A stretch of DNA of 39,282 bases, taken from positions 1 to 39,282 of the forward strand of contig DASVLW010000015.1 of the NCBI GenBank assembly GCA_036384675.1, in the 5' to 3' direction. This DNA is from Minisyncoccota bacterium. Lineage in GTDB: Bacteria > Patescibacteriota > Minisyncoccia > Phycocordibacterales > Phycocordibacteraceae. This document shows, piece after piece, positions 239 to 30,553 of this stretch. Below the pieces are notes generated by a model. It made no database searches, was not told the origin of the DNA, and worked only from the letters and a program-made list of their open reading frames with translations. Numbering within the stretch: position 1 is the first letter of the stretch; every line of letters begins with the position of its first letter. The position numbers were made by a program, and so were the translations under genes.

Positions 239-670
239 ATGAAGCTTGGACATCTGCGACGCGGTTTCACCCTCATCGAACTCCTCGTCGTGATCGCGAT
301 TATCGGCATCCTCTCGTCCGTCGTTCTCGCCTCGCTCAACACGGCGCGCACGAAGGGCAATTACGCGGCGGTGAAGTCGAACCTCTCGACCATCCAGACG
401 CAGGCGGAACTTGACTACGACGCCGCGCCGAACAGCTACGGCACCGTCACGTCCGCCGGCACCTGCGGCGGCACCGGCATGTTCGCGGACAACACCATCC
501 TCGGCGCTGTCGCTTCGGCGCGCAGCGCGGGCGGTACGATGAGCTGCAACACCAACGGCACGGCATACGTAGTGTGGTCCACGACATCGGGTGCGACGTG
601 GTGCATCGACAGCCGCGGCGTCTCGACGACGACCATTCCAGGCTCGAGCAGCGCGACGTCCTGCTACTAA
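239..670 (+). CDS. Type IV pilin (major pilin candidate, paralogue 1) with a prepilin-type N-terminal cleavage/methylation signal
   Basis: MKLGHLRR-GFTLIELLVVIAIIGILSS class III signal (G/F cleavage site, Glu at +5). Small size, and a C-terminal Cys pair (WCIDSRG...SCY). The ATG at 239 is preferred over the GTG at 128 because it gives a short basic leader. Confidence 0.9.
   Translation: MKLGHLRRGFTLIELLVVIAIIGILSSVVLASLNTARTKGNYAAVKSNLSTIQTQAELDYDAAPNSYGTVTSAGTCGGTGMFADNTILGAVASARSAGGTMSCNTNGTAYVVWSTTSGATWCIDSRGVSTTTIPGSSSATSCY
266..405 (+). repeat. 140-nt block 100 percent identical to 846-985 (N-terminal coding part of pilin paralogues 1 and 2)
   Basis: Base-by-base comparison of the two stretches. 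A second identical 54-nt block is at 581-634 = 1161-1214. Confidence 0.95.
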
Positions 671-1344: not shown

Positions 1345-2070
1345 ATGTTCGTTTTAGGCGCGATACTCGCGAGCTTCGCGGGCGTCATCGCGGGGCGCCT
1401 TAACACGGGGCAGTCATGGGCGCGCGGCCGCTCCCGGTGCGACGCCTGCGCGCGCACGCTCGCACTCGCGGACCTCTTCCCGGTGCTCTCATGGCTCGCC
1501 TCAGGCGGACGCTGCCGCGGCTGCGGCGCCCGGATACCGGTCGCAAGCCCGCTCGGCGAAGCGGCGCTCGGCGCCGCGTTCGCGTGGGCGTACCTGAGTA
1601 TCGGCTTCGCGCCCGCACTCCTGCCGTTCCTCGCTGCGCTGGTGGTGCTGTGCGCGCTCGTGCTTTATGATCTGGCCCACACCATCGTCCCGCCGGGCCT
1701 GTCCGCGCTCCTCGCGCTCCTCGCGCTCGCGTATGCCGCCGTCGCGACCGCGAGCTGGGCGTCGTTCGGTCTCGCGCTCGCTATCGCCGGCGCCATCGCG
1801 CTCGCACTCGCGCTGCTGCACCTGCTGTCGGGCGGCCGCGCCATGGGACTCGGCGACGCGCCGGTCGCGTTCTCGCTCTCGCTGCTTGCGGCGCCGTACG
1901 CGCTTGCCGGCCTCGCGTTCTCGTTCTGGATAGGCGCGGCCGTCGGCGTGCTCATCCTCGCGGGAAAGCCCCGGGGACAGCGGGCGGGCACGGAAGTCCC
2001 GTTCGTTCCATTCCTCGCCGCAGGATTCCTGCTCGCGTGCTTTACTCATATAAATCCTTTCCCATGGTAG
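1345..2070 (+). CDS. pilD: Prepilin peptidase (A24 family, PilD-like)
   Basis: N-terminal CDAC...CRGC zinc-type motif, polytopic Ala/Leu-rich membrane body, candidate catalytic Asp contexts LYDLAHT and GLGDAP. Embedded between pilin genes. The start is taken at ATG 1345 (in-frame GTG 1321 is possible). The longer ORF from 1147 overlaps pilin 2 and is rejected. Confidence 0.85.
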   Translation: MFVLGAILASFAGVIAGRLNTGQSWARGRSRCDACARTLALADLFPVLSWLASGGRCRGCGARIPVASPLGEAALGAAFAWAYLSIGFAPALLPFLAALVVLCALVLYDLAHTIVPPGLSALLALLALAYAAVATASWASFGLALAIAGAIALALALLHLLSGGRAMGLGDAPVAFSLSLLAAPYALAGLAFSFWIGAAVGVLILAGKPRGQRAGTEVPFVPFLAAGFLLACFTHINPFPW

Positions 2071-2498
2071 CTATCCGCCCGCATCGCCCCCGAGTCCTCC
2101 GCACCGGCTTCACGCTCGTCGAGCTGCTCGTCGTGATCGCCATCATCGGCATCCTCTCGACCATCGTGCTCGTGAGCCTCAACATTGCGCGGAACAAGGG
2201 CATCATGGCTTCCATGCAGACCAATCTGCACACGCTCCAGATCGAAGCGGAGATATATTACGCAAACAACGGCAACAGCTACGGTACGACCGCGGCGGGA
2301 ACCACGACTGCCAATTGCGCGAGCGCGATGTTCTCGGCCGATTCGGCGATAGCAAGCGCCCTGCAGGAAGCGCGGCAGACCGGCGCGGCCGTATCGTGCG
2401 GCGCACAGGGCAGGTATTACAGCGTCTCGGCTTCCGGGAGCGCGGGCACCTGGTGCGTCAACAACGACGGGCTCGCGACGACGACCCCCGGCTGCTAG
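2064..2498 (+). CDS. Type IV pilin (paralogue 3, divergent)
   Basis: MVAIRPHRPRVLRT-GFTLVELLVVIAIIGILST signal and a C-terminal Cys pair (WCVNNDG...PGC). Its start overlaps the peptidase stop (ATGGTAG). Confidence 0.88.
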   Translation: MVAIRPHRPRVLRTGFTLVELLVVIAIIGILSTIVLVSLNIARNKGIMASMQTNLHTLQIEAEIYYANNGNSYGTTAAGTTTANCASAMFSADSAIASALQEARQTGAAVSCGAQGRYYSVSASGSAGTWCVNNDGLATTTPGC

Positions 2499-2549
2499 CG
2501 AAGATATAGGCACCCGCGCCTGTTGGTAGGGAAGCCGCGAGGGCTTAGG

Positions 2550-5500
2550 ATGGTGGTAATGCCCGCCTTGTTCCATGCGCGCCTGAAGCGCTTGCAGCGT
2601 ATGAACGACCGGAAGCCGCTCCGGGGCTTCACGCTCATCGAGATGCTCGTCGTGCTCGCCATCATCGTCGTCATCAGCGCCATCGTGTTCACCGGGGAGA
2701 ACAATTTCAACCGCTCGTTCTTCATCACCAACACCGTGTATGACGTCGCGCTCACCCTGCGCCAGGCGCAGACGTACGGTCTCTCGAGCCAGGCGTACGG
2801 GGCGACGCAGAATGCGGGATACGGCATTTATATAAGCAATGAGTCGCCGTCGACGTACGTCATGTTCGCCGACGTGGGCGGCAGCGATCCGCCGGACAAC
2901 TGCGACACCGGCACGGCCGGGACCCCGACCGCGAAGCCTGGCAACTGCCTCTATGACGGCGCGGGGGAGCAGGTCCAGTCGTTCACGCTCGGCAACGGCT
3001 TCGCCATCACGAATTTCTGCATCGTCCCGGCCAGCGGCTCGGCGAATTGCTATACGCCCGCAGACGATCCCACGCAGGCGCTTTCCATGGTGTTCTCGCG
3101 CCCCAATGAAGACGCCATCATCAATACCGTGTCGGGCAGCGGCAGCGCGACGGTCGCGACGAGCGCATGCTTCACCATATCCGACTCCGTCGGCGACAGC
3201 CGCTACGTATCGGTCGCGCAATCCGGGCGCGTTGCCATCGCGGCGGGCTGTGATGCCGACCAGCTGAGCGGCGGAGGCGGCAGCACCGGCGGCGACGGCA
3301 GCGGCGGACTCGGCGGCGGTTCACCCGCGCCGCACTGCACGCTCGTCGCGGACCCTTCTTCCATTTCGGCGGGAGATTCTTCGGGGCTTACGCTCAATTC
3401 GACCAACGCGACGAGCGCATCCATAGACCATGACGTGGGTCCGGTCGGCGTCAACAGCACGAAATCCGTCTCGCCGACGGAGACGACGCTCTATACGGCG
3501 ATTGTGAACGGGCTCGGCGGCTCGAGCACCTGTACGGCGGCCATAACGGTCACGGCGCCGCAGCCGACATGCACGCTCACCCTGTCGCCGACATCGATAT
3601 CTGCCGGCGGCTCCTCGACGCTCACGTGGGACACGACGGGCGCCACGAGCATCAATATCGACAACGGCATCGGCAGCAAGACGCCGGTCGGCCACGGCAC
3701 CATGACGGTATCGCCGTCGAGCGACACCACATATACCGCGACGGCGGCGGGGCCGGGCGGCAGCACCAATTGCACCGCGTCGCTCAGCGTCACGGCGTCG
3801 CAGCTGAAGACTATTTTCCTCACGTCCGGTACATCGTGGACTGTGCCGGCAGACTGGGACAATGCCCATAATTCCATCGAGGTCATCGGCGGCGGCGGCT
3901 CGGGAGCGGCAGCGGGTGTCGGTTCGCACGGTGGCGGTGGCGGTGGCGCGTACGCGCTCGTCTCCGCCCGCACGCTGACGCCGGGCGCACACATCACGTA
4001 CCAGGTCGGTCCGGGCGGCACGGGCGTCGCGCAAAGCAATCCGGGCAATGGCGGCGGCGACACCTATTTCAACGGTACCGGCACGACCTGCGCGAGTCAG
4101 ATGGTTTGCGCCAAGGGAGGGCAAGGCGGACAGGTCGCGAGCGCCGGCGCTGGCGGTGCCGCGGCAAGCTCAATTGGTTCAACCAGATATTCCGGCGGTG
4201 CCGGCAGTTACGGGGCTGGTGGCGGATCGAACGGCGGCGGCGCAGCCGGGCCTAATGGCGACGGTGGTGCGGGCACTAGCAGCGCGGGCGGCACGGCGGA
4301 TGCGGGCGACGGCGGTGCCGGCGGCAAATCCGGATTGCTTCCAGGCGGCAATGGCACCGAATGGGATTCGACTCACGGTGCCGGCGGCGGCGGATACAGT
4401 GTCGCAGGTGTCAACACGACCGGAGTCGGCGGCAATTACGGCGGCGGCGGCGGCCGCGGAAACACCCAGAGCGCGGCAGGAGCGCAGGGTCTCATCGTCA
4501 TCATGTATGGCGGAAACGCCGGCGCGGGCGGCGTCGGGGGCGGCACCGAAACCCAGCCGGCTCCTACTTGTACGCTCACTGCGTCGCCGACCGCGATAAA
4601 CGCCGGCGGCTCGTCGATGCTCACTTGGACGACAACGGATGCGACGTCGATCACGATCAGCGGCGGCGTCGGATCGGTGACGCCGGTATCGGGCGGCTCC
4701 ACGACCGTCTCGCCGACCGTCGATACTACGTACACTGCGACAGTCAACGGCGCGGGCGGCAGCGGCAACTGCCAAGCGACGACCATAACCGTCAAGCACA
4801 CCACTCCTCAGACGATATTCCTGACATCTGGGTTCACGTGGACCGTGCCAAGCGATTGGAGTACCACCAATAAGGTCGAAGTAATCGGGCCAGTCGGGGT
4901 AGGCGGCATAGGAAGCAACAATGGTTCCGGAGGCGGCGGCGGCGGCGGATATGCAAGCGTGTCGAATCTTGCGCTCACTTCCGGAACATCGGTCAGCTAT
5001 AGCGTGTCCGGCAATTATTCCTACTTCGGAGCCAGCAGCTGCAATAACGCCTATGTATGCGCCGCCGCCGGCGGCGACGGAGGCTCGAGCGGCACCGCGG
5101 GCGCCGGCGGCGCGGGAATCGTGGGCTCCGTCCTCTTCACGGGCGGCAATGGCGGTACCGGCGATGGCGGCGGCTTCCTGGCCGGATTCGGCGGCGGCGG
5201 CGGCGGCGCGGCCGGCCCGCATGGCAAAGGAGCCAACGGCGGCAATGCCGTGTCTGGAACAGCCGGCGGCGCTGGCGGCAGAGGCGACAACGGTTCAGGA
5301 GGCACCGGAGGTGCGGCAGGGGCCGATGGCAATGCCGGTACCGAATGGGACTCGACGCATGGGTCGGGCGGCGGCGGCGGCGGAGCGAACGGCAACGGCG
5401 GAGGGGGAGGAGGTGGGGGTTTCATAAGCAAATTGCCTGACGATGGCAGTGCGTCCATGCCGGCGTATATGCTTGCCGCTGACAGCCGCCTCGCCTTCGG

Positions 5501-5663
5501 CTGGCTCGACGCTTCGCCGCTCAGGATCGCGGCCGGCGTCGGAGGCAGTGGCGGCGGCCTTTACGGCGCGGGCGGCGGCGGCGGGGGTTCCGGCGGCCCG
5601 GGCATCATCGTTATCACGTATACTCCTGCAACAGGCGGCGGGCATCCTCCAGTATCGCCATAG
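2550..5663 (+). CDS. Giant chimeric pseudopilin. It combines a prepilin signal, a FimT/GspH-like minor pilin domain, three Cys-bounded Ig-like repeats and two glycine-rich domains.
   Basis: RGFTLIEMLVVLAIIVVISAIVF signal. An internal module is duplicated (see findings). Start is uncertain: ATG 2550 has GAGGG 6 nt upstream, and ATG 2601 would give a 9-aa leader. The end is firm. Confidence 0.85.
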   Translation: MVVMPALFHARLKRLQRMNDRKPLRGFTLIEMLVVLAIIVVISAIVFTGENNFNRSFFITNTVYDVALTLRQAQTYGLSSQAYGATQNAGYGIYISNESPSTYVMFADVGGSDPPDNCDTGTAGTPTAKPGNCLYDGAGEQVQSFTLGNGFAITNFCIVPASGSANCYTPADDPTQALSMVFSRPNEDAIINTVSGSGSATVATSACFTISDSVGDSRYVSVAQSGRVAIAAGCDADQLSGGGGSTGGDGSGGLGGGSPAPHCTLVADPSSISAGDSSGLTLNSTNATSASIDHDVGPVGVNSTKSVSPTETTLYTAIVNGLGGSSTCTAAITVTAPQPTCTLTLSPTSISAGGSSTLTWDTTGATSINIDNGIGSKTPVGHGTMTVSPSSDTTYTATAAGPGGSTNCTASLSVTASQLKTIFLTSGTSWTVPADWDNAHNSIEVIGGGGSGAAAGVGSHGGGGGGAYALVSARTLTPGAHITYQVGPGGTGVAQSNPGNGGGDTYFNGTGTTCASQMVCAKGGQGGQVASAGAGGAAASSIGSTRYSGGAGSYGAGGGSNGGGAAGPNGDGGAGTSSAGGTADAGDGGAGGKSGLLPGGNGTEWDSTHGAGGGGYSVAGVNTTGVGGNYGGGGGRGNTQSAAGAQGLIVIMYGGNAGAGGVGGGTETQPAPTCTLTASPTAINAGGSSMLTWTTTDATSITISGGVGSVTPVSGGSTTVSPTVDTTYTATVNGAGGSGNCQATTITVKHTTPQTIFLTSGFTWTVPSDWSTTNKVEVIGPVGVGGIGSNNGSGGGGGGGYASVSNLALTSGTSVSYSVSGNYSYFGASSCNNAYVCAAAGGDGGSSGTAGAGGAGIVGSVLFTGGNGGTGDGGGFLAGFGGGGGGAAGPHGKGANGGNAVSGTAGGAGGRGDNGSGGTGGAAGADGNAGTEWDSTHGSGGGGGGANGNGGGGGGGGFISKLPDDGSASMPAYMLAADSRLAFGWLDASPLRIAAGVGGSGGGLYGAGGGGGGSGGPGIIVITYTPATGGGHPPVSP

Positions 5664-5667
5664 CCCT

Positions 5668-7005
5668 ATGTCGAACCATCATTCTCAGCGCGGATACACC
5701 CTTATTGAACTCATCGTTTCAGTGGGCATATTCAGTATCGTGATGCTGCTCGCGTCCGGCGCGTACCTTTCGCTCATCAGCTACACGCGCGAAGCGCGCG
5801 CCGTGAGCACCGTCATGACGAGCCTTTCATACGGCATCGACCAGATGAGCCGCGAGATACGCACGGGCACCGATTACCAGTGCGGCACCGGCGGCTGCGC
5901 GAACGCATCGTCAATAACGGTTACGAACGACCAGGGGCATACGGTGAGCTACCTGCTCGCGGACGGTGCCATCGCGCGCTGCGTCGACGAATCCGTCTGC
6001 ACGGCGGCTATCGCCGTCCCGCTCACGGATCCGTCCATCGACGTCACGAGCCTCGTTTTCAATGTAAAAGGCAACACGTCGTCGAGCGACGGCGTGCAGC
6101 CCTACGTGACCATGACCGTGCGCGGCGAGGCGGCGGTCGCCGGGGAGTCTCCGGTGCCGTTTTCCATAGAAACATCCGCATCGCAGCGCACGCTCGACCT
6201 CGGCGGCTCTTCGGGCGGTTCCGGCGGCAGCGGGGATGACGGAGGCGGAGACACCGGCGGCGATACGTTCGCTACCGGCGGCACGGTGACGCAGAGCGGG
6301 GGATACACCATTCATACGTTCACGTCGAACGGCACCTTTACACCGACGACATCCGGCACGGTCGACGTGCTCGTCATCGGCGGCGGCGGCGGGGGAGGCA
6401 GCGGCAACAGCACGCAGTGCGTGATGGGCGGCGGCGGCGGCGCGGGAGGATTCGTCTATCAGGCCGGTGTCGCGGTGAGCGCCCAGTCTTACTCCATCAC
6501 GGTCGGTGCCGGCGGCCAGGGCGGATGGAGCGGCGCGCTCAATAATGGTGTCAACGGCGGGAGCAGTTTCTTCGGTTCGGTCGTCGGCGCGAACGGCGGC
6601 GGCGGCGGCGGATATGGAAACTGCAGCGGCGCAGGCGGTTCGGGTTCCGTGGGTGCGTCCGGCGGCGGCGGCGGATACGGCACCGGCGGCACGGTCAGCG
6701 GCGGCGCGGGAGGAACCGGCGGCCATAACGGTGCGACGAGCCAAACCGGCGGCACGTCTGGCGGCGGCGGCGGCGCGGGCGCTGCGGCGACCAGCGGTAT
6801 CGGCGGCGCGGGCGCATCCAACACCATATCGGGCTCAGCCGTTACGTATGCCACCGGTGGGCAGGGCAACACCACCGGTCTCACGGCAGGCGTCACGTCG
6901 CCGGCCGCGGCGGCAAACACCGGCAACGGCGGCGCAGGCGGCTGGAGCGCGACGGGCGGCAACGGCGGCTCGGGCATCGTGATAATCCGCTACCCGACGC
7001 CATGA
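5668..7005 (+). CDS. PilW/GspJ-like pseudopilin fused to a C-terminal glycine-rich domain
   Basis: MSNHHSQR-GYTLIELIVSVGIFSIVML signal. The C-terminal part (nt 6268-7002) begins GGYTIHTFTSNGTFTPTTSGTVDVLVIGGGGGGG and ends GGSGIVIIRYPTP, like the domains of the preceding gene. The ATG lies 5 nt after the upstream stop. Confidence 0.88.
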   Translation: MSNHHSQRGYTLIELIVSVGIFSIVMLLASGAYLSLISYTREARAVSTVMTSLSYGIDQMSREIRTGTDYQCGTGGCANASSITVTNDQGHTVSYLLADGAIARCVDESVCTAAIAVPLTDPSIDVTSLVFNVKGNTSSSDGVQPYVTMTVRGEAAVAGESPVPFSIETSASQRTLDLGGSSGGSGGSGDDGGGDTGGDTFATGGTVTQSGGYTIHTFTSNGTFTPTTSGTVDVLVIGGGGGGGSGNSTQCVMGGGGGAGGFVYQAGVAVSAQSYSITVGAGGQGGWSGALNNGVNGGSSFFGSVVGANGGGGGGYGNCSGAGGSGSVGASGGGGGYGTGGTVSGGAGGTGGHNGATSQTGGTSGGGGGAGAAATSGIGGAGASNTISGSAVTYATGGQGNTTGLTAGVTSPAAAANTGNGGAGGWSATGGNGGSGIVIIRYPTP

Positions 7006-7547
7006 ACCCTATGAATTACCGCGCGCCGCATGCAAAGCACCAGGGCTTCACCCTCGTCGAGACGCTGGTGGCTATCGCCATATTCACTATCGCCATCGTC
7101 GCGCCGTTCACTGCCGCGAGCCGCGCGCTCGCCGCCGCGGCCATCGCGCGCGATACGCTCGTCGCGACGAACCTCGCGCAGGAAGGCCTCGAAGGCGTGC
7201 GCGAATTGCGCACGAACGGATACCTGACTGACTCGAGCGACCCCGATCCGGACCTCGACCAGTACCTGGCCGACTGCATCTCGCCCAAGATATGCGACGT
7301 GAACAGCGCGCTCACGACGTACGCCTGCACGGGCAGCGCGTGTTCCGCGCTCTACCTCAACACGACGACCGGCGCATACACGCACACCGCAAGCGGCAGC
7401 ACCGTCTCGCCGTTTTCCCGCACCATCAGCATCCAGAAGAGTCCGAACGGTCAGTCCGGCACCGAGCGCGCGACGGTTACGGTGACGTGGACGTCGCACG
7501 GCGCGCATTCCGTAATCCTAACTGAAGATTTCTATGACTGGTTCTAA
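7002..7547 (+). CDS. PilV/GspI-like minor pseudopilin
   Basis: HQ-GFTLVETLVAIAIFTIAIVAPF prepilin-type signal. ATGA overlap with the upstream gene. Confidence 0.85.
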   Translation: MNPMNYRAPHAKHQGFTLVETLVAIAIFTIAIVAPFTAASRALAAAAIARDTLVATNLAQEGLEGVRELRTNGYLTDSSDPDPDLDQYLADCISPKICDVNSALTTYACTGSACSALYLNTTTGAYTHTASGSTVSPFSRTISIQKSPNGQSGTERATVTVTWTSHGAHSVILTEDFYDWF

Positions 7548-8049
7548 CGCATCATCGCGCTCGCGGGGCTTCACGCTCATCATCGCGGTCATACTCGCGG
7601 CGGTCGCGACCGCGATAGGGCTCGCGCTCTCTTCCATAGCCTTCAAGAGCGTCCGGCTGTCGGACACGGCACAGGACTCGTCCGCCGCGTTCTATGCCGC
7701 CGACACGGGCCTCGAATGCACGCTGTTCGCCGACCAGAAGCAGGCGGCGTTCGAGTACGCGACGCACGCGAGTCCGCTCGCTGCGGCGACGATGACATGC
7801 ATAACGCCTTCGGGCACGCAGTCCGTCACTCTTACGGCATCAACGTTCAACGGCTCGACTCTAAAGTTCGTCTCGCAGTCGCCGAGCGGCTATTCCGGCG
7901 GATGGTTCCCGGTGGCGGGCGGCGGCTGCGCCCGCATCACGGCGTTCAAGCAGTCGTCGAGCGCGACGACGCTCTATGCCGAGGGCCTGAACACCTGCGA
8001 CACGAGCAGTCCGCGGCTCGTGGAGCGCGGTATCTACTCATATTATTAA
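7534..8049 (+). CDS. PilX-like pilus assembly/minor pilin protein
   Basis: SRSR-GFTLIIAVILAAVATAIGLAL hydrophobic N-terminus without Glu+5, followed by AFYAADTGLE, as in the PilX N-terminal domain. It overlaps the upstream gene by 14 nt. Confidence 0.75.
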   Translation: MTGSNASSRSRGFTLIIAVILAAVATAIGLALSSIAFKSVRLSDTAQDSSAAFYAADTGLECTLFADQKQAAFEYATHASPLAAATMTCITPSGTQSVTLTASTFNGSTLKFVSQSPSGYSGGWFPVAGGGCARITAFKQSSSATTLYAEGLNTCDTSSPRLVERGIYSYY

Positions 8050-8157
8050 CGCCCGCTCCCTCAAGGAGCCGGGAAGTCCCTCTCGGGTCCGGCATACTTT
8101 TCTGCTGAAAAGTCGCCTCACTCTCGCGCCGCCGCGCTCCGAGAGCCCCTCGATTGA

Positions 8158-13702: not shown

Positions 13703-14689
13703 ATGAATCGGAGATATCTGCTGCCATACATCGCGGTGCTCGCGCTTGCGGTCGCGACGGTCTGGTACCTGCACGGCGCGCATCTGCCGGTGCTCGAACC
13801 GGCGGGACCCGTCGCCGCCGCAGAATTGCGCGTCATGGTGATAACGACCCTGCTGTGCGCCATCGTCGTCATACCGGTCTTCGTCCTGCTGTTCTATTTC
13901 GCGTGGAAATACCGCGCGGGCAACACGGCGACGAACGTCGACCACCGCCCCGACTGGGATCACGACAACTGGATAGCCGAGACGCTCTGGTGGCTCGTGC
14001 CCGCGGCAATCATCGCATGCCTGGCCGTGCTCGCGTGGCGAAGCTCGTACGCGCTCGACCCGTACAAGCCGCTCGATTCAGACGCGCCCGCGCTGACCAT
14101 CCAGGTCGTCGCGCTCGACTGGAAATGGCTCTTCATCTATCCCGAGCAGGGGATAGCCAGCGTGAATCTGGTCGAATTCCCGGCGGATGTACCGGTGCGC
14201 TTTGAGCTTACCGCGGACGCGCCGATGAACTCGTTCTGGGTGCCGAGCCTCGGCGGGCAGATCATGGTGATGCCGGGCATGCAGACGCAGCTCAATCTCA
14301 TGGCGAGCCGCGTCGGCGACTACCAGGGCGCGTCGGCGAACATCAGCGGCGACGGCTTCGCGGGCATGGCGTTCACCGCGCGGGCGGTATCACAGGACGA
14401 TTTTAGTGCGTGGGTCGCGTCGGCGCAGGACTCCGCGCGCCCGCTCACGCTCGATGCGTACGGCGCGCTTGCCGCGCCGAGCTCGTATAATCCGGTCATG
14501 CTGTATTCATCGGCAGACACCGGCCTGTTCGGGACGATCATAAATCGCGTGATGATGCCCGAACAGGGGGAATTCCCGGCGGCGATGCCTGCCGGCGATA
14601 TGCCGGATATGAACGGGATGTCCGGCATGGACATGCGCGGGATGGATATGAGCATGCCGATGCATATGAACACGAATACCGCGCCATGA
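13703..14689 (+). CDS. cyoA: Cytochrome bo-type ubiquinol oxidase subunit II (CuA-less) with a Met-rich C-terminal tail
   Basis: Two N-terminal TM helices and a cupredoxin region NSFWVPSLGGQIMVMPGMQTQL...GASANISGDGFAGM. This matches the quinol-oxidase form, in which the CuA Cys/His ligands are replaced. Confidence 0.93.
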   Translation: MNRRYLLPYIAVLALAVATVWYLHGAHLPVLEPAGPVAAAELRVMVITTLLCAIVVIPVFVLLFYFAWKYRAGNTATNVDHRPDWDHDNWIAETLWWLVPAAIIACLAVLAWRSSYALDPYKPLDSDAPALTIQVVALDWKWLFIYPEQGIASVNLVEFPADVPVRFELTADAPMNSFWVPSLGGQIMVMPGMQTQLNLMASRVGDYQGASANISGDGFAGMAFTARAVSQDDFSAWVASAQDSARPLTLDAYGALAAPSSYNPVMLYSSADTGLFGTIINRVMMPEQGEFPAAMPAGDMPDMNGMSGMDMRGMDMSMPMHMNTNTAP

Positions 14690-16671
14690 GCTGGAACTTG
14701 CTTATATTCGGTGAGCTATCGTGGTCGGTGTTCCCGCAGAACCCTATCGCGCTCGGCGGCGCGGCGTTCATGGTCTGCTGCGCGCTCCTGGTACTTGCCG
14801 GCATTACATACCTCGGGCGCTGGAAATGGCTCTGGAGCGAATGGCTCACGTCGCTTGACCCGAAGCGCCTCGGCGTCATGTACATCGCGGTATCCGGCGT
14901 GATGCTCGTGCGCGGCGGCATCGACGCGCTCCTCATGCGCGCGCAGCAGGCGACATCCGTCGGCGCGTCGGACGGCATCCTCGCCGCGAATCATTTCCAG
15001 CAGATATTCTCGGCGCACGGGTCGATCATGATCTTCTTCGTCGCGATGGGGTTCATGTTCGGCATCATCAACCTCGTGCTGCCGCTCCAGATAGGGTCGC
15101 GCGATGTCGCGTTCCCGTTCCTGAACTCCCTCAGCTTCTGGCTCTTCGCCGCCGGCGCAGTGCTCATCAACCTCTCGCTCATCGTCGGCGACTTCTCGAC
15201 CGCCGGGTGGCTTTCGTATCCGCCCTTGTCCGAGCTCGCGTACAGCCCCACGACCGGCGTCGACTACTGGATATGGAGCCTGCAGATAGGCGGGCTCGGG
15301 AGCCTGCTCGCGGGGATAAATTTCCTCATCACCATCATAAAGATGCGCGCCGCCGGCATGACGCCCATGCGCATGCCGGTGTTCGTCTGGAGCGTCGCCG
15401 GGTCTATGTCGCTCGTCGTCTTTGCGTTTCCGATACTCACCGCGACTCTCGCGCTCTTGGCGCTCGACCGCACGCTCGGCATGCATTTCTTCACCGCGGG
15501 CGGCGGCGGGAACATGATGATGTACGTGAACCTGATATGGGCGTGGGGGCACCCGGAAGTGTACATACTCATCCTGCCGGCGTTCGGCATATTCTCGGAA
15601 GTCGTCCCGGCGTTCTCGGGCAAGAAGCTTGCGGGATATTTCTCGATGGTGCTGTCCATCTGGGCCATCGTGTTCCTCTCGTTCCTGGTCTGGCTGCACC
15701 ACTTCTTCACGATGGGCGCCGAGGCCGACGTGAATGCATTCTTCGGCATCATGACGGCGGTCATCGCGATACCGACGGGCGTCAAGATATTCAACTGGCT
15801 GTTCACGATGTACCGCGGCCGCATCCGCTTCTATACGCCGATGCTCTGGTTCATGGGCTTCGTCGTTCTCTTCACGCTCGGCGGCGTGGCGGGCGTCGTG
15901 CTCGCCGAGCCGCCGGCCGACTACCAGCTCCACAACAGCCTCTTCCTCGTCGCGCATTTCCACACCATGATCGTGAGCGGCGTCCTGTTCGGCTACTTCG
16001 CCGGCATCACCTACTGGTTCCCGAAGATATTCGGCTTCCGGCTCGACGAGAGCCTCGGACGCAAGGCGTTCTGGTGTTGGCTGTTCGGATTCATACTCGC
16101 GTTCGGCCCGCTCTACATATTGGGATTCATGGGGGCGACGCGCCGGCTCGACCACTATGCGGCCGGGCTCGGATGGCAGCCGCTATTCATCGTTGCCGGC
16201 GTCGGCGTGCTCATTATCGCGCTCGGATTCGCGTTCCAGGTCGCGCAGCTCGTGCGGAGCGTGCGGCAGCGCCGCATGAATATGGATACGACGGGCGATC
16301 CGTGGGATGGCCGGACGCTCGAGTGGTCGACGGCTTCGCCGCCGCCCGCGTACAACTTCGCGGTGCTGCCGGCCGTCCATTCGCTCGACGCGTTCTGGGC
16401 GGCGAAGCAGGAAGGCCTTTCTCCCGAAGCGCGCTATGAAGACATCCGCATGCCGAAGAACACGGGCGCCGGCATCGTCATCGCGGCGTTCGTATTCCTG
16501 TTTGGGTTCGGTATCGTCTGGCATATGTGGTGGCTCGCGATTCTCGGCATAGCCGGCGCGTTCATATGCGTACTCGTCCGGACATTCGCCGAGGACACGG
16601 AATACGTGCTGCCTGCGGCTGAAATCCGGAAGCAGGAAGAAGCCCGCGGCCGTCCGGTCGTAGCCGTATGA
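14686..16671 (+). CDS. cyoB: Cytochrome bo-type ubiquinol oxidase subunit I (heme-copper oxidase catalytic subunit)
   Basis: 661 aa. WAWGHPEVYILILPAFG, HHFFTMG and FLVAHFH motifs. ATGA overlap with cyoA. Confidence 0.97.
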   Translation: MSWNLLIFGELSWSVFPQNPIALGGAAFMVCCALLVLAGITYLGRWKWLWSEWLTSLDPKRLGVMYIAVSGVMLVRGGIDALLMRAQQATSVGASDGILAANHFQQIFSAHGSIMIFFVAMGFMFGIINLVLPLQIGSRDVAFPFLNSLSFWLFAAGAVLINLSLIVGDFSTAGWLSYPPLSELAYSPTTGVDYWIWSLQIGGLGSLLAGINFLITIIKMRAAGMTPMRMPVFVWSVAGSMSLVVFAFPILTATLALLALDRTLGMHFFTAGGGGNMMMYVNLIWAWGHPEVYILILPAFGIFSEVVPAFSGKKLAGYFSMVLSIWAIVFLSFLVWLHHFFTMGAEADVNAFFGIMTAVIAIPTGVKIFNWLFTMYRGRIRFYTPMLWFMGFVVLFTLGGVAGVVLAEPPADYQLHNSLFLVAHFHTMIVSGVLFGYFAGITYWFPKIFGFRLDESLGRKAFWCWLFGFILAFGPLYILGFMGATRRLDHYAAGLGWQPLFIVAGVGVLIIALGFAFQVAQLVRSVRQRRMNMDTTGDPWDGRTLEWSTASPPPAYNFAVLPAVHSLDAFWAAKQEGLSPEARYEDIRMPKNTGAGIVIAAFVFLFGFGIVWHMWWLAILGIAGAFICVLVRTFAEDTEYVLPAAEIRKQEEARGRPVVAV

Positions 16672-17285
16672 TGGATGAGCGCATGACAGTCTTGAACGAG
16701 CAGCAGGAAGCGGAGGAGAATGCCGCTGACGGCACCACGGTCTTCGGGCTGTGGGTGTATCTCATGACCGACCTCGTGCTGTTCGCGAGCCTGTTCGCGG
16801 CGTATGCCGTGCTGCATACCAGTACGTTCGGCGGGCCGTCGGGCCGCGACATCTTCGACCTGCCGCTCGTCCTTGCCGAAACCCTGCTGCTCCTGACCAG
16901 CAGCTTCACGTGCGGGCTCGCGCTCCTGGCCGCGCGCGCCGGCAGCGCGCGCGGCGCCGTCAATTGGCTCGGCGCCACGTTCCTGCTCGGCGCCGCATTC
17001 CTCGCCATCGAGTTCTCGGAATTCGCGCGGCTTGCGGGCGCCGGGAACGGCCCGCCGCGCAGCGCGTTCCTTTCTTCGTATTTCACGCTCGTTGGAACGC
17101 ACGGACTGCATATCGTCGCGGGGCTGCTCTGGATCGCCGCGCTCATATTCGCCGTCCTGCGCCGCGGGCTTTCACGCTCCTCCCTGCGCAAGCTCATGCT
17201 CTTCAGCATGTTCTGGCATTTCCTCGACCTCGTATGGATATTCATATTCACCGTCGTATATTTGATGGGAGCGAACCTGCTATGA
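16668..17285 (+). CDS. cyoC: Cytochrome bo-type ubiquinol oxidase subunit III
   Basis: 205 aa, five hydrophobic helices, FWHFLDLVWIFIF motif. ATGA overlap with cyoB. Confidence 0.93.
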   Translation: MMDERMTVLNEQQEAEENAADGTTVFGLWVYLMTDLVLFASLFAAYAVLHTSTFGGPSGRDIFDLPLVLAETLLLLTSSFTCGLALLAARAGSARGAVNWLGATFLLGAAFLAIEFSEFARLAGAGNGPPRSAFLSSYFTLVGTHGLHIVAGLLWIAALIFAVLRRGLSRSSLRKLMLFSMFWHFLDLVWIFIFTVVYLMGANLL

Positions 17286-17665
17286 ATACCGGCGATTATT
17301 TCGAAAACATCGGCGCATGGCCGCGGGGCACGGGCATTCGCGGGTATGCGTGGGGATTCGCCCTGTCGCTTCTGTTCACGCTTGCCGCGTATGTCCTCGC
17401 CGCGCACCACCTGCTCGCCCCGCGGCCGCTCGCCCTGCTGCTTGCGGCATTCGCGCTCGCGCAGGCGTTCGTGCAGCTTGCGTGCTTCCTTCATGTGGGG
17501 AAGAGCGCCGGCGCGCGGGAGCGGCTCTACATGCTCGGCAGCTTCGGGCTCGTCATCCTGATACTGATCGCGGGCTCGATATGGATCATGTTCAGCCTGA
17601 ACGCGCGCATGATGCCCGGCACGATGCAGATGGAACAATATATGCAGAGCCAGCAGGGGATATGA
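17282..17665 (+). CDS. cyoD: Cytochrome bo-type ubiquinol oxidase subunit IV
   Basis: 127 aa, three TM helices, in the expected position, ATGA overlaps on both sides. The longer ORF from 16751 overlaps cyoC and is rejected. Confidence 0.85.
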   Translation: MNTGDYFENIGAWPRGTGIRGYAWGFALSLLFTLAAYVLAAHHLLAPRPLALLLAAFALAQAFVQLACFLHVGKSAGARERLYMLGSFGLVILILIAGSIWIMFSLNARMMPGTMQMEQYMQSQQGI

Positions 17666-18525
17666 CCGGCATGTTGAAGGACTATTATCGCCTCACGAAG
17701 CCCGGTATCGTGTACGGCAACGCGTTCACGACGCTCGCCGCGTTCCTCTATGCTTCCGGCTGGCACGCGAGCGCCGCGCTGTTCTGCGCGACGCTCGCCG
17801 GCAGTATGCTCGTCGTCGCGTCGGCGTGCGTATTCAATAATTATCTCGATCGCGGCATCGACGCGAAGATGGAGCGTACGAAGAACCGTCCGCTCGTGAC
17901 CGGCGCGATATCGGGCGCGAACGCGATCGCGTACGGAAGCGCGCTCGGCATCATCGGCGTCGCGCTGCTCTCTATATATGCGAACCCGCTCACGGCGGCG
18001 ATCGCGCTGTTCGGATTCCTTTCATACGTCTTCGCGTACGGCTGGGCGAAGCGCGCGTCCTACTGGGGCACGGTTGTCGGCAGCATCCCCGGCGCGGTGC
18101 CCGTCGTCGTGGGCTATACCGCCGTAACCGGCCGGATTGATGCGGCTGCCGCGACGCTCTTCTTCATCCTCGTCTTCTGGCAGATGCCGCATTTCTACGC
18201 CATAGCGACATACCGCCTCGACGAATATGCCGCGGCGGGCATCCCCGTTCTTCCCGCGCGAAAGGGAATACGCGCGGCCAAAATCCATATCCTCCTCTAT
18301 ATCATCGCGTACCTCGCCGCAGCGTCCGCGCTCACGGCGCTCGGTTATGCGGGCTATGCCTATCTCGCCGCGGTGCTACTCATTGGGCTGATGTGGCTCT
18401 GGCGCGCCGGAAAAGGATTCAGGGCGCCGGACGATGCGGCGTGGGCGCGCGGCGTGTTCCGGTTCTCGCTCATCGTCCTGGTAACCTTCTCAGCAGCGCT
18501 TTCGGTCGCATCGCTGCTGCCATAA
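17662..18525 (+). CDS. cyoE: Protoheme IX farnesyltransferase (heme O synthase)
   Basis: LKDYYRLTKPGIV..., NNYLDRGIDAKMERTKNRPL (UbiA-family Asp-rich motif), polytopic. ATGA overlap with cyoD. Confidence 0.93.
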   Translation: MTGMLKDYYRLTKPGIVYGNAFTTLAAFLYASGWHASAALFCATLAGSMLVVASACVFNNYLDRGIDAKMERTKNRPLVTGAISGANAIAYGSALGIIGVALLSIYANPLTAAIALFGFLSYVFAYGWAKRASYWGTVVGSIPGAVPVVVGYTAVTGRIDAAAATLFFILVFWQMPHFYAIATYRLDEYAAAGIPVLPARKGIRAAKIHILLYIIAYLAAASALTALGYAGYAYLAAVLLIGLMWLWRAGKGFRAPDDAAWARGVFRFSLIVLVTFSAALSVASLLP

Positions 18526-28894: not shown

Positions 28895-29704
28895 CTAGGC
28901 CAGCTGCCTGCCAAGCAGGAACGCTTCCTGCCCGGGTCCATCGCGCCGTCTTACAAACACCGCCAGCGCGTCTTCCGGAGCGTAGATATTCTTTCCGCCG
29001 TCCGTTCCTATCAATTCGCCTTTTCGTGCTGGTTCGAAATCCGCGAATTCTCTCGACGGAGAAAAATCGACCTCAGCGACGTGGCAGAAAAACATGTGAA
29101 CGTGCTTTTGATCGGGAACGGCAGGGACGGGTGCCGTTTCAATAATGCCGAGGTGCGCGAGGAATTGCGTGATGGAACTGGTCGCTCGATGAACCTGCGC
29201 GCCGCCGTCGAACACGGAACCGCACTCGATGCCGAGGGACAGCTTACCGAGACGGCTCATGTATCCGTCCGTTGCGCCCGGCTCAACCGCGTCCCAGCCG
29301 TCGGTTATGAGCGGGAAATCCAGCGTCTTGGCCAGCGCGCGCGATTCGTTTCCTTCGCATATGACGAATGGCGTGGCAGAGCGGCTGTTGCTCGCATGGA
29401 TATCAAGCAGGGCATCGCACTCCTTGAGAAGCTCCATCAACTCGCGGGCCCTGTTGTCCTCATAGGTTGAGCCGGTATTGTTTTCCAGAAAGCAGCGATT
29501 CATATTCTTTTCCACGAAACGCAGGTTCTGCGCGATCGCAAGGGGATTGGCTTCGACAAAATAAACCGTGCCGCACTCCAGTTTTAGATTCGACGCAGCC
29601 TGCCGCACAGCATCGACGCCGACGCGCTCGTTGCCGTGCACCCCGCCGAATACGGCGGCCGTCTTGCCGGGCCGCCCGCTGTCTATTCTCGTTACTCCTT
29701 CCAT
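28895..29704 (-). CDS. Succinylglutamate desuccinylase/aspartoacylase family zinc hydrolase (M14-like)
   Basis: VFGGVHGNERVG (HxxE zinc motif), DIHAS and GIECGS are typical of the AstE/AspA family. Confidence 0.85.
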   Translation of the reverse strand: MEGVTRIDSGRPGKTAAVFGGVHGNERVGVDAVRQAASNLKLECGTVYFVEANPLAIAQNLRFVEKNMNRCFLENNTGSTYEDNRARELMELLKECDALLDIHASNSRSATPFVICEGNESRALAKTLDFPLITDGWDAVEPGATDGYMSRLGKLSLGIECGSVFDGGAQVHRATSSITQFLAHLGIIETAPVPAVPDQKHVHMFFCHVAEVDFSPSREFADFEPARKGELIGTDGGKNIYAPEDALAVFVRRRDGPGQEAFLLGRQLA

Positions 29705-29800
29705 CTGACCAGTCTACCCTATTTACCGAGCAGTCCTTGCCGGCGTAAGGGAAGTGGAATCACTATTTTGCGAACGTGAGAGCACTCGATTGGGCGGGCC

Positions 29801-29829
29801 TTTACATTTTCTATTCCAGGTCGTATATT
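29801..29829 (+). promoter_or_regulatory. Sigma70-like promoter
   Basis: TTTACA, 17-nt spacer, TATATT. A GAGGAG Shine-Dalgarno lies 7 nt before ATG 29861. Confidence 0.55.
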
Positions 29830-30540: not shown

Positions 30541-30553
30541 CGACTCGAGAATC

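What the first reader, a model, noticed from the sequence alone, without database searches (positions are those of the whole stretch)
6268..7002. A third copy of the same glycine-rich domain sits on the neighbouring PilW/GspJ-like pseudopilin
The adjacent gene (5668-7005) has its own prepilin signal and a PilW/GspJ-like N-domain. Its C-terminal 245 aa begins GGYTIHTFTSNGTFTPTTSGTVDVLVIGGGGGGGSG and ends GGNGGSGIVIIRYPTP. These are the same start and end signatures as the two domains in the giant pseudopilin. Two consecutive minor pilins therefore carry three copies of one domain family. They are followed by PilV-like and PilX-like genes joined by overlapping stop/start codons. This looks like a dedicated priming or tip complex decorated with glycine-rich modules, playing the role that PilY1/PilC-type adhesins play elsewhere. 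No PilY1 homologue is visible in the window.
Basis: partly seen in the sequence, partly recalled or inferred. Interest (0 to 1): 0.7.

Follow-up and report, generated by a model that had tools for sequence, protein, structure and literature searches.

The report
Swappable phage-fibre-like tip module on pilin
A minor subunit of the type IV pilus of an uncultivated ultrasmall (Paceibacterota/CPR) bacterium carries at its end a real glycine-rich domain of the kind phages use at their tail-fibre tips to recognise hosts. This one module differs sharply between otherwise near-identical strains, which suggests, but does not show, that it is an exchangeable binding head.

Summary
Nt 6268-7002 encode a full-length PF21722 (Gly_rich_2) domain (74.7 bits, E 1.4e-20). 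It is joined by a disordered Gly/Ser/Asp linker to a GspJ/PilW-like minor pilin (5668-7005). The two domains in the neighbouring giant pseudopilin belong to the same family but to a different subtype. Direct BLASTP against the third copy finds nothing. Profile-profile comparison (E 7.9e-7; 31 shuffled or reversed controls fail) and structure prediction support homology, so this is not mere low complexity. Both predicted folds match cyanophage Pam3 tail-fibre gp24 and mycobacteriophage Bxb1 tail-tip proteins best. The four genes are the standard core minor-pilin set of the Patescibacteria pilus operon, not a special complex. Most relatives of this pilin are about 180 aa and carry no module; a few carry this domain, the other subtype, or Ig-like repeats. 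A strain 98-99.7% identical across 6 kb is only 76% identical in nt 6240-6975, while a lineage with 53-62% identical operon proteins has an 82% identical module. The module is therefore an exchanged cassette. A tip-displayed binding role is inferred, not shown. This is a new variant of the known "modular pilin" theme.

The parts
5668..7005 (+). Modular minor pilin, 445 aa. It has a GspJ/PilW-like pilin module, a linker and a Gly_rich_2 module. It is the second of four core minor pilins.
   Evidence: ORF and gene call. PF07963 plus PF21722. AlphaFold model with mean pLDDT 84.5.
5668..6201 (+). Pilin module, aa 1-178. It contains the class III signal peptide QRG|YTLIE (Glu5 present), helix alpha1 (aa 12-66) and a beta-sheet head that ends ...SIETSASQRTLDL.
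   Evidence: Foldseek hits: EpsJ 3cfi (prob 0.99), XcpW 3nje and 5bw0, GspJ 3ci0. The stand-alone homologue P0244 (178 aa, 60% identical) ends at exactly this point.
6202..6267 (+). Flexible Gly/Ser/Asp linker (GGSSGGSGGSGDDGGGDTGGDT). It is length-polymorphic between strains.
   Evidence: pLDDT below 50 for aa 174-197. 68.7% nt identity with indels against strain L086.
6268..7002 (+). Gly_rich_2 (PF21722) module, subtype A. The model shows beta strands (an N-terminal hairpin plus the C-terminal GIVIIRY strand among them) and long confidently predicted Gly-rich segments without regular secondary structure. The domain is almost uncharged and has two Cys.
   Evidence: Pfam 74.7 bits. phrog_2295 E 3e-32. 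Mostly pLDDT above 90. Foldseek to Pam3 gp24 7ypx_A E 1e-4 and to Bxb1 9d93 Qa/Qb. 183 BFVD hits. Composition.
6240..6975 (+). Divergent tract (allelic cassette) relative to the near-identical strain L086. The flanks 6109-6239 and 6976-7234 are identical.
   Evidence: 210 of 273 differences over 6 kb fall within 6200-7000. d3 is 75.8% nt identical against 98-99.7% elsewhere. 61 synonymous and 56 non-synonymous codon differences. Boundaries.
2559..5663 (+). Giant first minor pilin (1034-1046 aa). It is GspH/FimU-like by position only. Order of parts: pilin module, 2 Ig-like repeats, Gly-rich subtype B (d1), Ig-like repeat, Gly-rich subtype B (d2).
   Evidence: ORF. Gene call P0121. PF07963 plus PF21722. 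Orthologues of 208-823 aa with 0 or 1 modules.
3798..4514 (+). Gly-rich module d1, subtype B (TIFLTSGTSWTVPADW ... GTEWDSTHG ... GLIVIMY).
   Evidence: PF21722 38.8 bits. Alignment A2 shows conserved non-Gly core residues. 99.0% nt identical in L086.
4794..5627 (+). Gly-rich module d2, subtype B. It has a private insertion of about 45 aa (domain aa 203-247) predicted with low confidence.
   Evidence: phmmer to d1 i-E 3.5e-15. AlphaFold pLDDT 79.4. Foldseek top hit Pam3 gp24 E 3e-4.
3324..3797 (+). Two Ig-like spacer repeats (CTLxxxPxSIxxGxSxxLTW...). A third lies at 4557-4793.
   Evidence: Repeat motif positions. Most hits cover only 7-17% of the giant; I read these as hits to the Ig-like repeats, but did not map them.
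7002..7547 (+). Third minor pilin, PilV/GspI-like (weak, below curated cutoffs). Its start overlaps the stop of the target gene (ATGA).
   Evidence: TIGR01707 gspI 31.1 bits and TIGR02523 pilV 25.7 bits, both below cutoff. Junction sequence.
7534..8049 (+). Fourth minor pilin, PilX/GspK-like (SRG|FTLIIAV, no Glu5). It overlaps the previous gene by 14 nt.
   Evidence: PF14341 PilX_N 27.1 bits, above the 25.5 cutoff. Sequence.
1345..2070 (+). Prepilin peptidase, flanked by three major-pilin-like genes (239-670, 807-1247, 2064-2498).
   Evidence: PF06750. PF07963 on the pilins.

Best explanation
Nt 6268-7002 encode a genuine, folded domain of about 245 aa of the Gly_rich_2 family (PF21722). The model shows a set of beta strands and long, confidently predicted glycine-rich segments without regular secondary structure. 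Its best solved match, Pam3 gp24, is described as a TNF-like domain plus a glycine-rich lattice.

The domain is grafted through a disordered Gly/Ser/Asp linker onto the exact C-terminus of a GspJ/PilW-like core minor pilin. The pilin belongs to the type IV pilus operon of a Candidatus Paceibacterota (CPR/Patescibacteria) bacterium. The protein is therefore a 'modular pilin'.

Inferred mechanism: the four minor pilins prime pilus assembly and end up at the filament tip. The linker lets the module, together with the two subtype-B modules on the giant first minor pilin, project from the tip. There the module binds a ligand on another cell or surface. The ligand is most likely a glycan or another uncharged envelope component of a host bacterium. 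This would parallel the same fold at phage tail-fibre tips.

The module behaves as a recombining cassette. It is swapped independently of its pilin carrier, both between near-identical strains and between distant lineages. Exposed specificity determinants under diversifying or frequency-dependent selection typically show this pattern.

Shown here: domain identity, homology of the three copies, modular architecture, operon context and cassette exchange. Inferred: tip location, binding function and ligand class.
For: Domain reality and family:
- Pfam 74.7 bits over the full model.
- More than 100 full-length matches.
- Conserved non-Gly core residues.
- AlphaFold pLDDT mostly above 90 in the module.

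Homology of the copies.

Fold:
- Top PDB matches for both d3 and d2 are Pam3 tail-fibre gp24 (7ypx_A, 7yfw_a) and Bxb1 tail-tip chains.
- A sequence profile finds Pam3 gp24 colinearly, including the terminal GIIIVQY strand (E 0.017).
- 183 BFVD viral hits, phrog_2295 and phrog_863, and at least 67 IMG/VR loci.
- In Pam3 the TNF-like plus glycine-rich domains are described as the host-recognition part (PMC9608196). Mycobacteriophage 'polyglycine-rich/brush' domains are regarded as candidate anti-receptors (PMC13252515 and PMC13243795).

Carrier: GspJ/EpsJ/XcpW fold. P0244 ends at the fusion point. Alternative modules sit on the same carrier: subtype B, Ig-like repeats, Ig plus propeller-like repeats.

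Operon: conserved synteny in five other loci, and in the strain variant L086.

Cassette exchange:
- 75.8% nt identity in the module against 98-99.7% in the flanks.
- 82% module identity to a lineage whose operon proteins are 53-62% identical.

Precedent: modular pilins act as adhesins (PMC8179133). Accessory-domain minor pilins affect host binding in Saccharibacteria TM7x (PMC11623550).

d3 has 1 Arg, 0 Lys, 1 Asp and 0 Glu, which argues against DNA binding.
Against: - No binding, localisation or expression data exist for this protein or any pilin-borne Gly_rich_2 domain.
- Tip location is extrapolated from GspK-I-J and PilVWX systems of diderm bacteria.
- Pam3 gp24 works as a trimer and needs a chaperone. 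No chaperone gene is evident here, and a pilin-borne copy is presumably monomeric.
- Foldseek TM-scores to Pam3 are modest (0.44-0.49 normalised to the target), and S16 gp38 itself was not retrieved.
- The elevated synonymous divergence shows recombination but does not by itself show positive selection.
- Most orthologous pilins lack any module, so the module is dispensable for pilus assembly and its role may be niche-specific.
- The carrier-versus-module identity comparison is inflated by the 36% glycine content. A rough arithmetic estimate, assuming all glycines match, leaves about 74% versus 66% identity at non-Gly positions; I did not compute this directly.
Confidence: 0.62

Rival explanations
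1. The variable module is mainly a target or shield in an arms race with phages or predators that use the pilus tip as receptor. Its diversification would reflect evasion, not choice of attachment partner. The module need not bind anything specific.
For: There is cassette replacement between near-identical strains with high synonymous divergence. Type IV pili are common phage receptors (established knowledge). The domain family is shared with phages.
Against: In every characterised context this fold is on the attacking side, as a receptor-binding tip. A pure shield would not need a conserved, elaborately folded 245-aa scaffold. The giant's two modules are conserved between the strains (99.0% and 98.6%).
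Confidence: 0.15
2. The module has a structural or assembly role. Examples would be stabilising or capping the minor-pilin complex, limiting retraction, or spacing the tip away from the cell, without ligand specificity.
For: The minor pilins are assembly primers (PMC7541494 is listed; established knowledge). Ig-like repeats that look like spacers accompany the modules on the giant pilin.
Against: Most orthologues (143 of the best 150 representatives) lack any extension and presumably still assemble pili. An assembly part would not be expected to be the single hypervariable segment of the operon.
Confidence: 0.1
3. The pilus is a DNA-uptake (competence) filament and the glycine-rich module is its DNA receptor.
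For: CPR bacteria are thought to depend on scavenged nucleotides, and type IV filaments mediate DNA capture in other bacteria (PMC12153270 is listed).
Against: d3 has one Arg, no Lys and pI 6.9. d1 and d2 are acidic, with pI 5.6 and 4.8. In TM7x the pilin mutants of the T4P-2 system showed near-wild-type competence. No similarity to ComP, ComZ or ComGG-type DNA receptors was found.
Confidence: 0.05
4. The resemblance among the three regions is only glycine-rich low complexity, with no real shared domain.
For: BLASTP with compositional adjustment finds nothing between d3 and d1 or d2. d2 gets no Pfam hit.
Against: Full-length curated-profile hits for d3 and d1. Order-dependent profile-profile similarity with 31 failed controls. 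Shuffle z-scores. Conserved aromatic and hydrophobic core columns. Confident AlphaFold models that retrieve the same PDB folds.
Confidence: 0.02

Closest known systems
Modular type IV pilins (S. sanguinis PilB with a vWA module and PilC with a lectin module; Raynaud et al. 2021, PMC8179133)
   Same: A pilin module with a class III signal peptide, a short flexible linker and a grafted functional module. That paper proposes the arrangement is tip-exposed and gives the filament a binding function, and reports many examples from CPR genomes.
   Different: The module here is PF21722, which is not among the architectures quoted in the passages of that paper I read. The carrier is a GspJ/PilW-type core minor pilin. 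Two neighbouring pilins carry three modules. The module is an exchanged cassette.
Accessory-domain minor pilins of Saccharibacteria TM7x (PilX1 with a beta-jelly-roll, PilX2 with a beta-propeller; PMC11623550)
   Same: A Patescibacteria type IV pilus with core minor pilins, one or more of which bear large C-terminal domains proposed as tip adhesins. Deleting pilX2 lowers host binding.
   Different: The module fold and the carrier pilin differ (second rather than 'X' pilin). There are no experimental data for the Paceibacterota protein.
Cyanophage Pam3 tail fibre gp24 (PDB 7YPX/7YFW), described as TNF-like plus glycine-rich domain
   Same: It is the best structural match for both d3 and d2 (E 1e-4 and 3e-4, prob 1.0). 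It is also detectable by sequence profile, with colinear GGGGxGG motifs and the terminal beta-strand. In the phage it is described as the receptor-recognition part.
   Different: gp24 is a homotrimer attached by an alpha-helical shaft and folded with chaperone gp25. Here the domain hangs on a pilin, probably as a single copy, and no chaperone gene is seen. Sequence identity is about 24%.
Polyglycine-rich / 'brush' domains of mycobacteriophage tail tips (Bxb1, PDB 9D93) and the S16 gp38 adhesin
   Same: Glycine-rich finger lattices placed at the host-contacting end of a fibre. Bxb1 chains Qa/Qb are the second-best PDB matches. They are regarded as candidate anti-receptors.
   Different: S16 gp38 itself was not retrieved by Foldseek. 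Ligands are unknown for most of these domains. They occur in a phage hub or fibre context.
PilY1/PilC tip adhesins of type IVa pili
   Same: The proposed functional position is the same: a large binding protein presented by the core minor-pilin complex.
   Different: PilY1 is not a pilin and is defined by a C-terminal beta-propeller (PF05567). No such domain is in the window. This is an analogy only.
ALK/LTK extracellular TNF-like/glycine-rich (TG) domain (PF12810)
   Same: The Pam3 paper relates gp24 to the ALK ligand-binding domain. Weak Foldseek hits were found here.
   Different: There is no Pfam PF12810 hit even at E 10. Foldseek probability is 0.38 or less and TM about 0.2. It is not a member.

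Membership tests
Pfam PF21722 Gly_rich_2 | Match to the curated profile above the gathering score (24.3 bits), over most of the model | tested here: met
   d3 scores 74.7 bits over 1-225/226. d1 scores 38.8 bits over 3-225/226. d2 has no Pfam hit but is linked to d1 by phmmer i-E 3.5e-15 and shares the same top PDB folds.
Type IV pilin / pseudopilin | Class III signal peptide: Gly-1, aromatic +1, Glu+5, hydrophobic alpha1-N helix | tested here: met
   QRG|YTLIELIVSVGIFSIVMLL. PF07963 32.1 bits and TIGR02532 26.5 bits, both above cutoff. Predicted helix at aa 12-66. A prepilin peptidase gene lies in the operon.
GspJ / PilW-type core minor pilin | Sequence match to the gspJ (TIGR01711) or PilW models | tested here: not met
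   No gspJ or PilW model hit for this protein, only generic N-terminal pilin hits.
GspJ / PilW-type core minor pilin | Fold of the globular head like GspJ/EpsJ/XcpW, and position in a four-gene minor-pilin block | tested here: met
   Foldseek: 3cfi EpsJ prob 0.99, 3nje and 5bw0 XcpW prob 0.97-0.98, 3ci0_J prob 0.91; TM normalised to target 0.43-0.51; E 0.06-0.4. It is the second of four minor pilins in six syntenic loci.
Modular pilin (sensu Raynaud et al. 2021) | [quoted passage not shown] | tested here: met
   Domain map. The same domain occurs mostly in non-pilin proteins: 78 of 83 ORFs in genome loci lack a prepilin motif. Stand-alone pilin orthologues end at the fusion point.
Modular pilin (sensu Raynaud et al. 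2021) | Module exposed on the filament and mediating a pilus function | not testable with these tools
   This needs microscopy and binding assays.
Phage tail-fibre TNF-like / polyglycine-rich receptor-binding domain (Pam3 gp24 type) | Shared fold and colinear motifs with the solved structure | tested here: met
   Foldseek to 7ypx_A: E 1.1e-4 (d3 model) and 3.1e-4 (d2 model), prob 1.0. hmmsearch E 0.017 with colinear N- and C-terminal strands.
Phage tail-fibre TNF-like / polyglycine-rich receptor-binding domain (Pam3 gp24 type) | Homotrimeric assembly with a dedicated chaperone | tested here: inconclusive
   Oligomeric state could not be modelled. No Tfa/gp25-like gene is evident among the operon genes, but this was not searched exhaustively.
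S16 gp38-type polyglycine-II sandwich adhesin | Structural match to PDB 6F45 | tested here: not met
   6F45 is absent from the top 50 Foldseek matches of both models. The link is only indirect, through the Pam3 paper.
ALK/LTK glycine-rich domain (PF12810) | Profile match or confident fold match | tested here: not met
   No PF12810 hit at E up to 10. Foldseek prob 0.06-0.38 and TM about 0.13-0.22.
PilY1/PilC adhesin | C-terminal PilY1 beta-propeller (PF05567), non-pilin | tested here: not met
   No such Pfam hit in this protein or in any large ORF of the window.
Diversity-generating retroelement target | Nearby reverse transcriptase, template repeat, adenine-specific substitutions | tested here: not met
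   No RT among the Pfam hits. No long DNA repeat of 6200-7005 in the window. The substitution spectrum is not A-biased, and there are 36 indel columns and 61 synonymous codon changes.

The most novel reading that the evidence does not exclude
Paceibacterota, and perhaps many CPR/DPANN episymbionts, may recognise their host cells with the same receptor-binding fold that phages use at tail-fibre tips. The fold would be mounted on the pilus tip as a recombination-swappable specificity cassette. Under this reading, module alleles determine which host the episymbiont can attach to and are traded between lineages, possibly also with phages. A further speculative extension: the three modules supplied by the two adjacent pilins pack into a TNF-like pseudo-trimer that mimics a trimeric phage fibre tip.
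Probability: 0.25. Interest if true: 0.8.

Novelty: new variant of a known kind. Interest (0 to 1): 0.6.

Why it matters
How uncultivated ultrasmall bacteria of the CPR find and hold on to their hosts is largely unknown. Type IV pili are the main candidates, and only one cultivated system (TM7x) has been dissected.

This locus offers a concrete, sequence-defined candidate for a host-specificity determinant:
- a phage-fibre-type glycine-rich head on a core minor pilin;
- clear domain boundaries;
- natural allelic variants on an isogenic background;
- evidence of exchange between lineages.

This makes several questions testable. Examples are binding assays with allele swaps, correlating module alleles with co-occurring host taxa in metagenomes, and comparison with phage receptor-binding proteins. 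It also extends the 'modular pilin' concept to a widespread but uncharacterised Pfam family. The same carrier pilin accepts several alternative modules.

Tried and rejected
- Pairwise BLASTP of d3 against d1 and d2 found nothing. I replaced it with shuffle tests, profile-profile comparison and structure comparison.
- tblastn of d3 against INPHARED phage genomes gave no match, probably because the low-complexity filter masks the query. Viral occurrence was shown instead through BFVD, PHROGs and IMG/VR.
- Literature searches for PF21722/Gly_rich_2, and for Patescibacteria together with polyglycine, returned no paper. A search for glycine-rich, minor pilin and Patescibacteria found no paper containing all three terms. 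The Bxb1 Cell paper is not held. The held version of the Jabs preprint lacks the text.
- The DGR hypothesis for the hypervariable tract was rejected: no RT, no template repeat, no A-bias, many synonymous changes and indels.
- Classifying the giant's pilin module as GspH/FimU failed. Only generic N-terminal pilin hits were found, so that label rests on gene order.
- The closest-relative contig with an unextended second pilin and a 433-aa fourth pilin (JGI 3300056388) has no DNA available, so its extra module could not be identified.
- The metagenome scan for more strain-level alleles gave only two loci, one truncated just inside the module.
- The word-indexed search with the N-domain returned only short proteins and omitted known fused homologues. 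It was therefore not used to estimate the fused fraction; the exhaustive HMMER search was used instead.
- Model coordinates are not exposed, so polyglycine-II geometry and the mapping of variable sites onto the structure could not be checked directly.
Full report
**What is at the coordinates**

The window carries, on the + strand, three major-pilin-like genes and a prepilin peptidase (239-2498). Four pilin-type genes follow:
- a giant one (2559-5663);
- the target (5668-7005);
- a PilV/GspI-like one (7002-7547);
- a PilX_N one (7534-8049).

After these come ligA, gatC and gatA. The target starts MSNHHSQRG|YTLIELIV, a class III signal peptide that scores above the curated cutoffs. The giant's stop lies 4 nt before the target's ATG. 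There is an ATGA overlap at 7002-7005 and a 14-nt overlap at 7534-7547. NCBI names several proteins of this contig 'MAG TPA ... [Candidatus Paceibacterota bacterium]', so the organism is a CPR/Patescibacteria bacterium.

**Is the C-terminal region a real domain?**

Yes. Nt 6268-7002 match Pfam PF21722 (Gly_rich_2) end to end at 74.7 bits, E 1.4e-20, and phrog_2295 at E 3e-32. The whole 245-aa unit aligns over query positions 2-244 to more than 100 diverse proteins. Conserved non-glycine positions include H216, F218, L235, Y394, N417, V438, I439 and Y442. An AlphaFold model built on 58 sequences has mean pLDDT 84.5. The module is mostly above 90, and only the linker (aa 174-197) falls below 50.

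**Are the three copies one family?**

The giant's d1 (3798-4514) matches PF21722 at 38.8 bits; d2 (4794-5627) does not. d1 and d2 are clearly related: Smith-Waterman z=19 against shuffles, and phmmer i-E 2e-13 / 3.5e-15 over nearly the full length.

d3 against d1 or d2 gives no BLASTP alignment and only z=3.2-3.9 against composition-preserving shuffles.

Other evidence supports homology. A profile of d3-type domains against a profile of d1/d2-type domains gives hhalign probability 91.7%, E 7.9e-7 (global mode 95.8%, E 3e-9 over 214 columns). The reversed alignment and 30 column-shuffled alignments score 8-16 against 50.8 for the real one. A separate AlphaFold model of d2 (pLDDT 79.4) retrieves the same top PDB entries as the d3 model.

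The correct statement is three copies of one family in two subtypes:
- Subtype A (d3): GGYTIHTFTSSGTFTP ... GGSGIVIIRYPTP.
- Subtype B (d1, d2): TIFLTSGTSWTVPSDWN..IEVIGGGG ... GTEWD..HG.GGGG ... GLIVITYTP.

**What the fold is**

The best solved matches of the full-length model are cyanophage Pam3 fibre gp24 (7ypx_A E 1.1e-4; 7yfw_a) and mycobacteriophage Bxb1 tail-tip chains (9d93 Qa/Qb/Pa). ALK/LTK glycine-rich domains appear only weakly.

A sequence profile also finds Pam3 gp24 colinearly, down to the terminal 'GIIIVQY' strand (E 0.017). BFVD gives 183 viral matches at E<1e-3, mostly 'glycine-rich domain-containing proteins' of cyanophages, uncultured Caudovirales, prasinoviruses and a halovirus. 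IMG/VR holds at least 67 loci.

The Pam3 paper describes gp24 as a TNF-like plus glycine-rich domain responsible for recognising the host receptor. It relates gp24 to the S16 gp38 adhesin and to ALK (PMC9608196). Mycobacteriophage papers call such modules polyglycine-rich or 'brush' domains and treat them as candidate anti-receptors.

The N-terminal half of the target matches EpsJ, XcpW and GspJ (probabilities 0.91-0.99).

**Context: an ordinary operon with facultative modules**

Homologues sit in a conserved Patescibacteria-type cluster. The order is PilB, response regulator, PilT, PilC, pilin(s), prepilin peptidase, four minor pilins, ligA, gatC, gatA. The window simply starts downstream of PilC.

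Lengths of the two module-bearing pilins vary widely across these loci.

First minor pilin:

| Locus | Length (aa) | Modules |
|---|---|---|
| L006 | 208 | not examined |
| L005 | 220 | not examined |
| L003 | 224 | none (sequence read) |
| L002 | 490 | Ig-like repeats only |
| P0122 | 657 | Ig-like repeats only |
| L087 | 823 | one subtype-B module |
| window | 1046 | two subtype-B modules |

Second minor pilin:
- 446-474 aa with a Gly-rich module in L002, L005 and L006 (PF21722; subtype A by sequence in L002 and L005), and subtype B in L003.
- 179 aa with no module in the JGI contig that also holds P0122. There the fourth pilin is 433 aa instead of about 170.

An exhaustive HMMER search with the pilin module alone finds 1872 representatives at E<1e-10. 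Of the best 150, only 7 exceed 270 aa. Their extensions are subtype A, subtype B, Ig-like repeats, or Ig plus propeller-like repeats. The stand-alone homologue P0244 (178 aa, 60% identical) ends ...SIETSATQRLLDL, exactly where the linker begins here.

Conversely, only 5 of 83 Gly_rich_2 ORFs in GTDB species representatives carry a prepilin motif. The rest sit in ORFs without a prepilin motif, many longer than 1,000 codons stop-to-stop, in CPR, DPANN archaea, Elusimicrobiota, Planctomycetota and other phyla.

This is the 'modular pilin' pattern described by Raynaud et al. (PMC8179133). It resembles the accessory-domain minor pilins of Saccharibacteria TM7x, where deleting pilX2 lowers host binding (PMC11623550).

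**The most informative result: the module is a cassette**

A 6,070-bp contig from another sample (L086, SRR11658454) aligns to window 2110-8146. Identity by segment:

| Segment | nt identity |
|---|---|
| Third pilin gene | 99.7% |
| Giant, N-domain plus Ig repeats | 98.5% |
| d1 | 99.0% |
| Ig spacer | 99.3% |
| d2 | 98.6% |
| Target pilin module | 98.1% |
| Linker | 68.7% |
| d3 | 75.8% |
| PilV-like gene | 99.3% |
| PilX-like gene | 99.0% |

Of 273 differences, 210 lie within 6200-7000. The divergent tract runs from 6240 to 6975, between perfectly identical stretches at 6109-6239 and 6976-7234. Within the module there are 61 synonymous and 56 non-synonymous codon differences plus indels. 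The spectrum is not adenine-biased, and the window holds no template-like repeat or reverse transcriptase. This points to replacement by a diverged allele through recombination, not hypermutation or a DGR.

In the opposite direction, the module of P0003/L002 is 82% identical to d3, although that genome's peptidase and four minor-pilin modules are only 53-62% identical. Glycine content inflates both figures. A rough arithmetic estimate, assuming all glycines match, keeps the ranking at non-Gly positions (about 74% versus 66%); I did not compute this directly.

The module therefore has an evolutionary history separate from its carrier. The giant's two modules are conserved between the two strains.

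**Mechanism (inferred)**

The steps rest on established knowledge of GspH-I-J-K and FimU-PilVWX complexes. The four minor pilins prime assembly and cap the filament. The fourth pilin lacks Glu5, as tip-most GspK-type subunits do (for the sequence; the rule is from my own knowledge). The disordered linker of about 22-25 aa would let the module project from the tip.

Several observations favour an exposed binding head that recognises a glycan or other neutral envelope component of a partner cell:
- The fold serves as a receptor-binding tip in phages.
- The domain is almost uncharged and rich in Ser, Thr, Asn and Tyr.
- It is the only hypervariable segment of the operon.

Nothing here demonstrates tip location or binding.

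**Rivals**

- Variation driven by evasion of pilus-tip phages, about 0.15.
- A purely structural role, about 0.1. This is weakened because most orthologues lack any module.
- A DNA receptor, about 0.05. This is weakened by the lack of positive charge.
- Low-complexity coincidence, refuted.

**Novelty**

The domain family is already in Pfam, and database records name family members generically as 'glycine-rich domain-containing' or 'prepilin-type ... domain-containing' proteins. Modular pilins and CPR accessory-domain pilins are published concepts. No held paper mentions PF21722 or links Patescibacteria pili to polyglycine-type domains.

Three points appear new:
- a phage-fibre-type head on a GspJ-like core minor pilin;
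- shuffling of alternative modules among the core minor pilins;
- cassette-like exchange of this one module.

I rate it a new variant of a known kind, with interest 0.6.

Noticed in passing
window 13703-18525: A haem-copper oxidase operon (COX2, COX1, COX3 and a UbiA-family, CyoE-like prenyltransferase) sits on the contig that NCBI assigns to a Candidatus Paceibacterota MAG. Respiratory oxidases are unusual for CPR genomes. This could be a real trait or a binning or assembly issue.
   Followed up: partly
window ~29000-39282: G+C falls from about 0.64-0.68 to about 0.53-0.59 for the last 10 kb (ArgRS, a PLP decarboxylase, a histidine kinase). NCBI assigns ArgRS to the same MAG contig, so this may be an island or a compositional boundary rather than a chimera.
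   Followed up: partly
window 5400-5534 (d2, domain aa 203-247): d2 carries a private insertion of about 45 aa (FISKLPDDGSASMPAYMLAADSRLAFGWLDASPLRIAA...). It is absent from the 20 other subtype-B domains aligned and is predicted with pLDDT below 50. It may be a specificity loop or a disordered insert.
   Followed up: partly
proteins P0055 and P0072 (homologues): In these pilin-Gly_rich_2 fusions the 'GGYTIHTFTSSGTFTP' hairpin lies after the C-terminal GIVIIRY strand instead of before the domain. This is an apparent circular permutation and suggests that the hairpin packs against the last strand.
   Followed up: no
JGI 3300056388 contig of 18,926 bp (no DNA held): In this relative (second pilin 61% identical; giant homologue P0122 56% identical) the second minor pilin has no module (179 aa), but the fourth (PilX-like) is 433 aa instead of about 170. 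Extra modules therefore seem to move among the four minor pilins. The nature of that module is unknown.
   Followed up: no
protein P0171: This 1309-aa protein has several subtype-B glycine-rich modules and precomputed Pfam hits PF05203 and PF05268. I recall these as Hint-type and phage-tail-fibre-type families, but did not check this. It may be a self-processing or phage-derived surface protein.
   Followed up: no
window 239-670 and 807-1247: Two adjacent major-pilin-like genes share an almost identical mature N-terminal half (GFTLIELLVVIAIIGILSSVVLASLNTARTKGNYAAVKSNLSTIQTQAELDYDAA). This looks like a recent tandem duplication with divergent C-terminal heads.
   Followed up: no
locus L025 (uncultured bacterium MJ111018A_bin-779), ORFs at 3471 and 4688: Two consecutive genes each encode a prepilin signal followed by a Gly_rich_2 domain on a major-pilin-like N-terminus (G|FTIVELLVVIVVIG). 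The same module has therefore been grafted independently onto other pilin classes.
   Followed up: no
Genome-contig loci L007, L011, L044, L046, L053, L061, L065, L076, L079, L082: The Gly_rich_2 domain is also frequent in DPANN archaea (Woesearchaeota, Pacearchaeota, Nanoarchaeota), often in very large ORFs. Like CPR, these are episymbiotic lineages, which hints at a shared toolkit for cell-cell contact.
   Followed up: no
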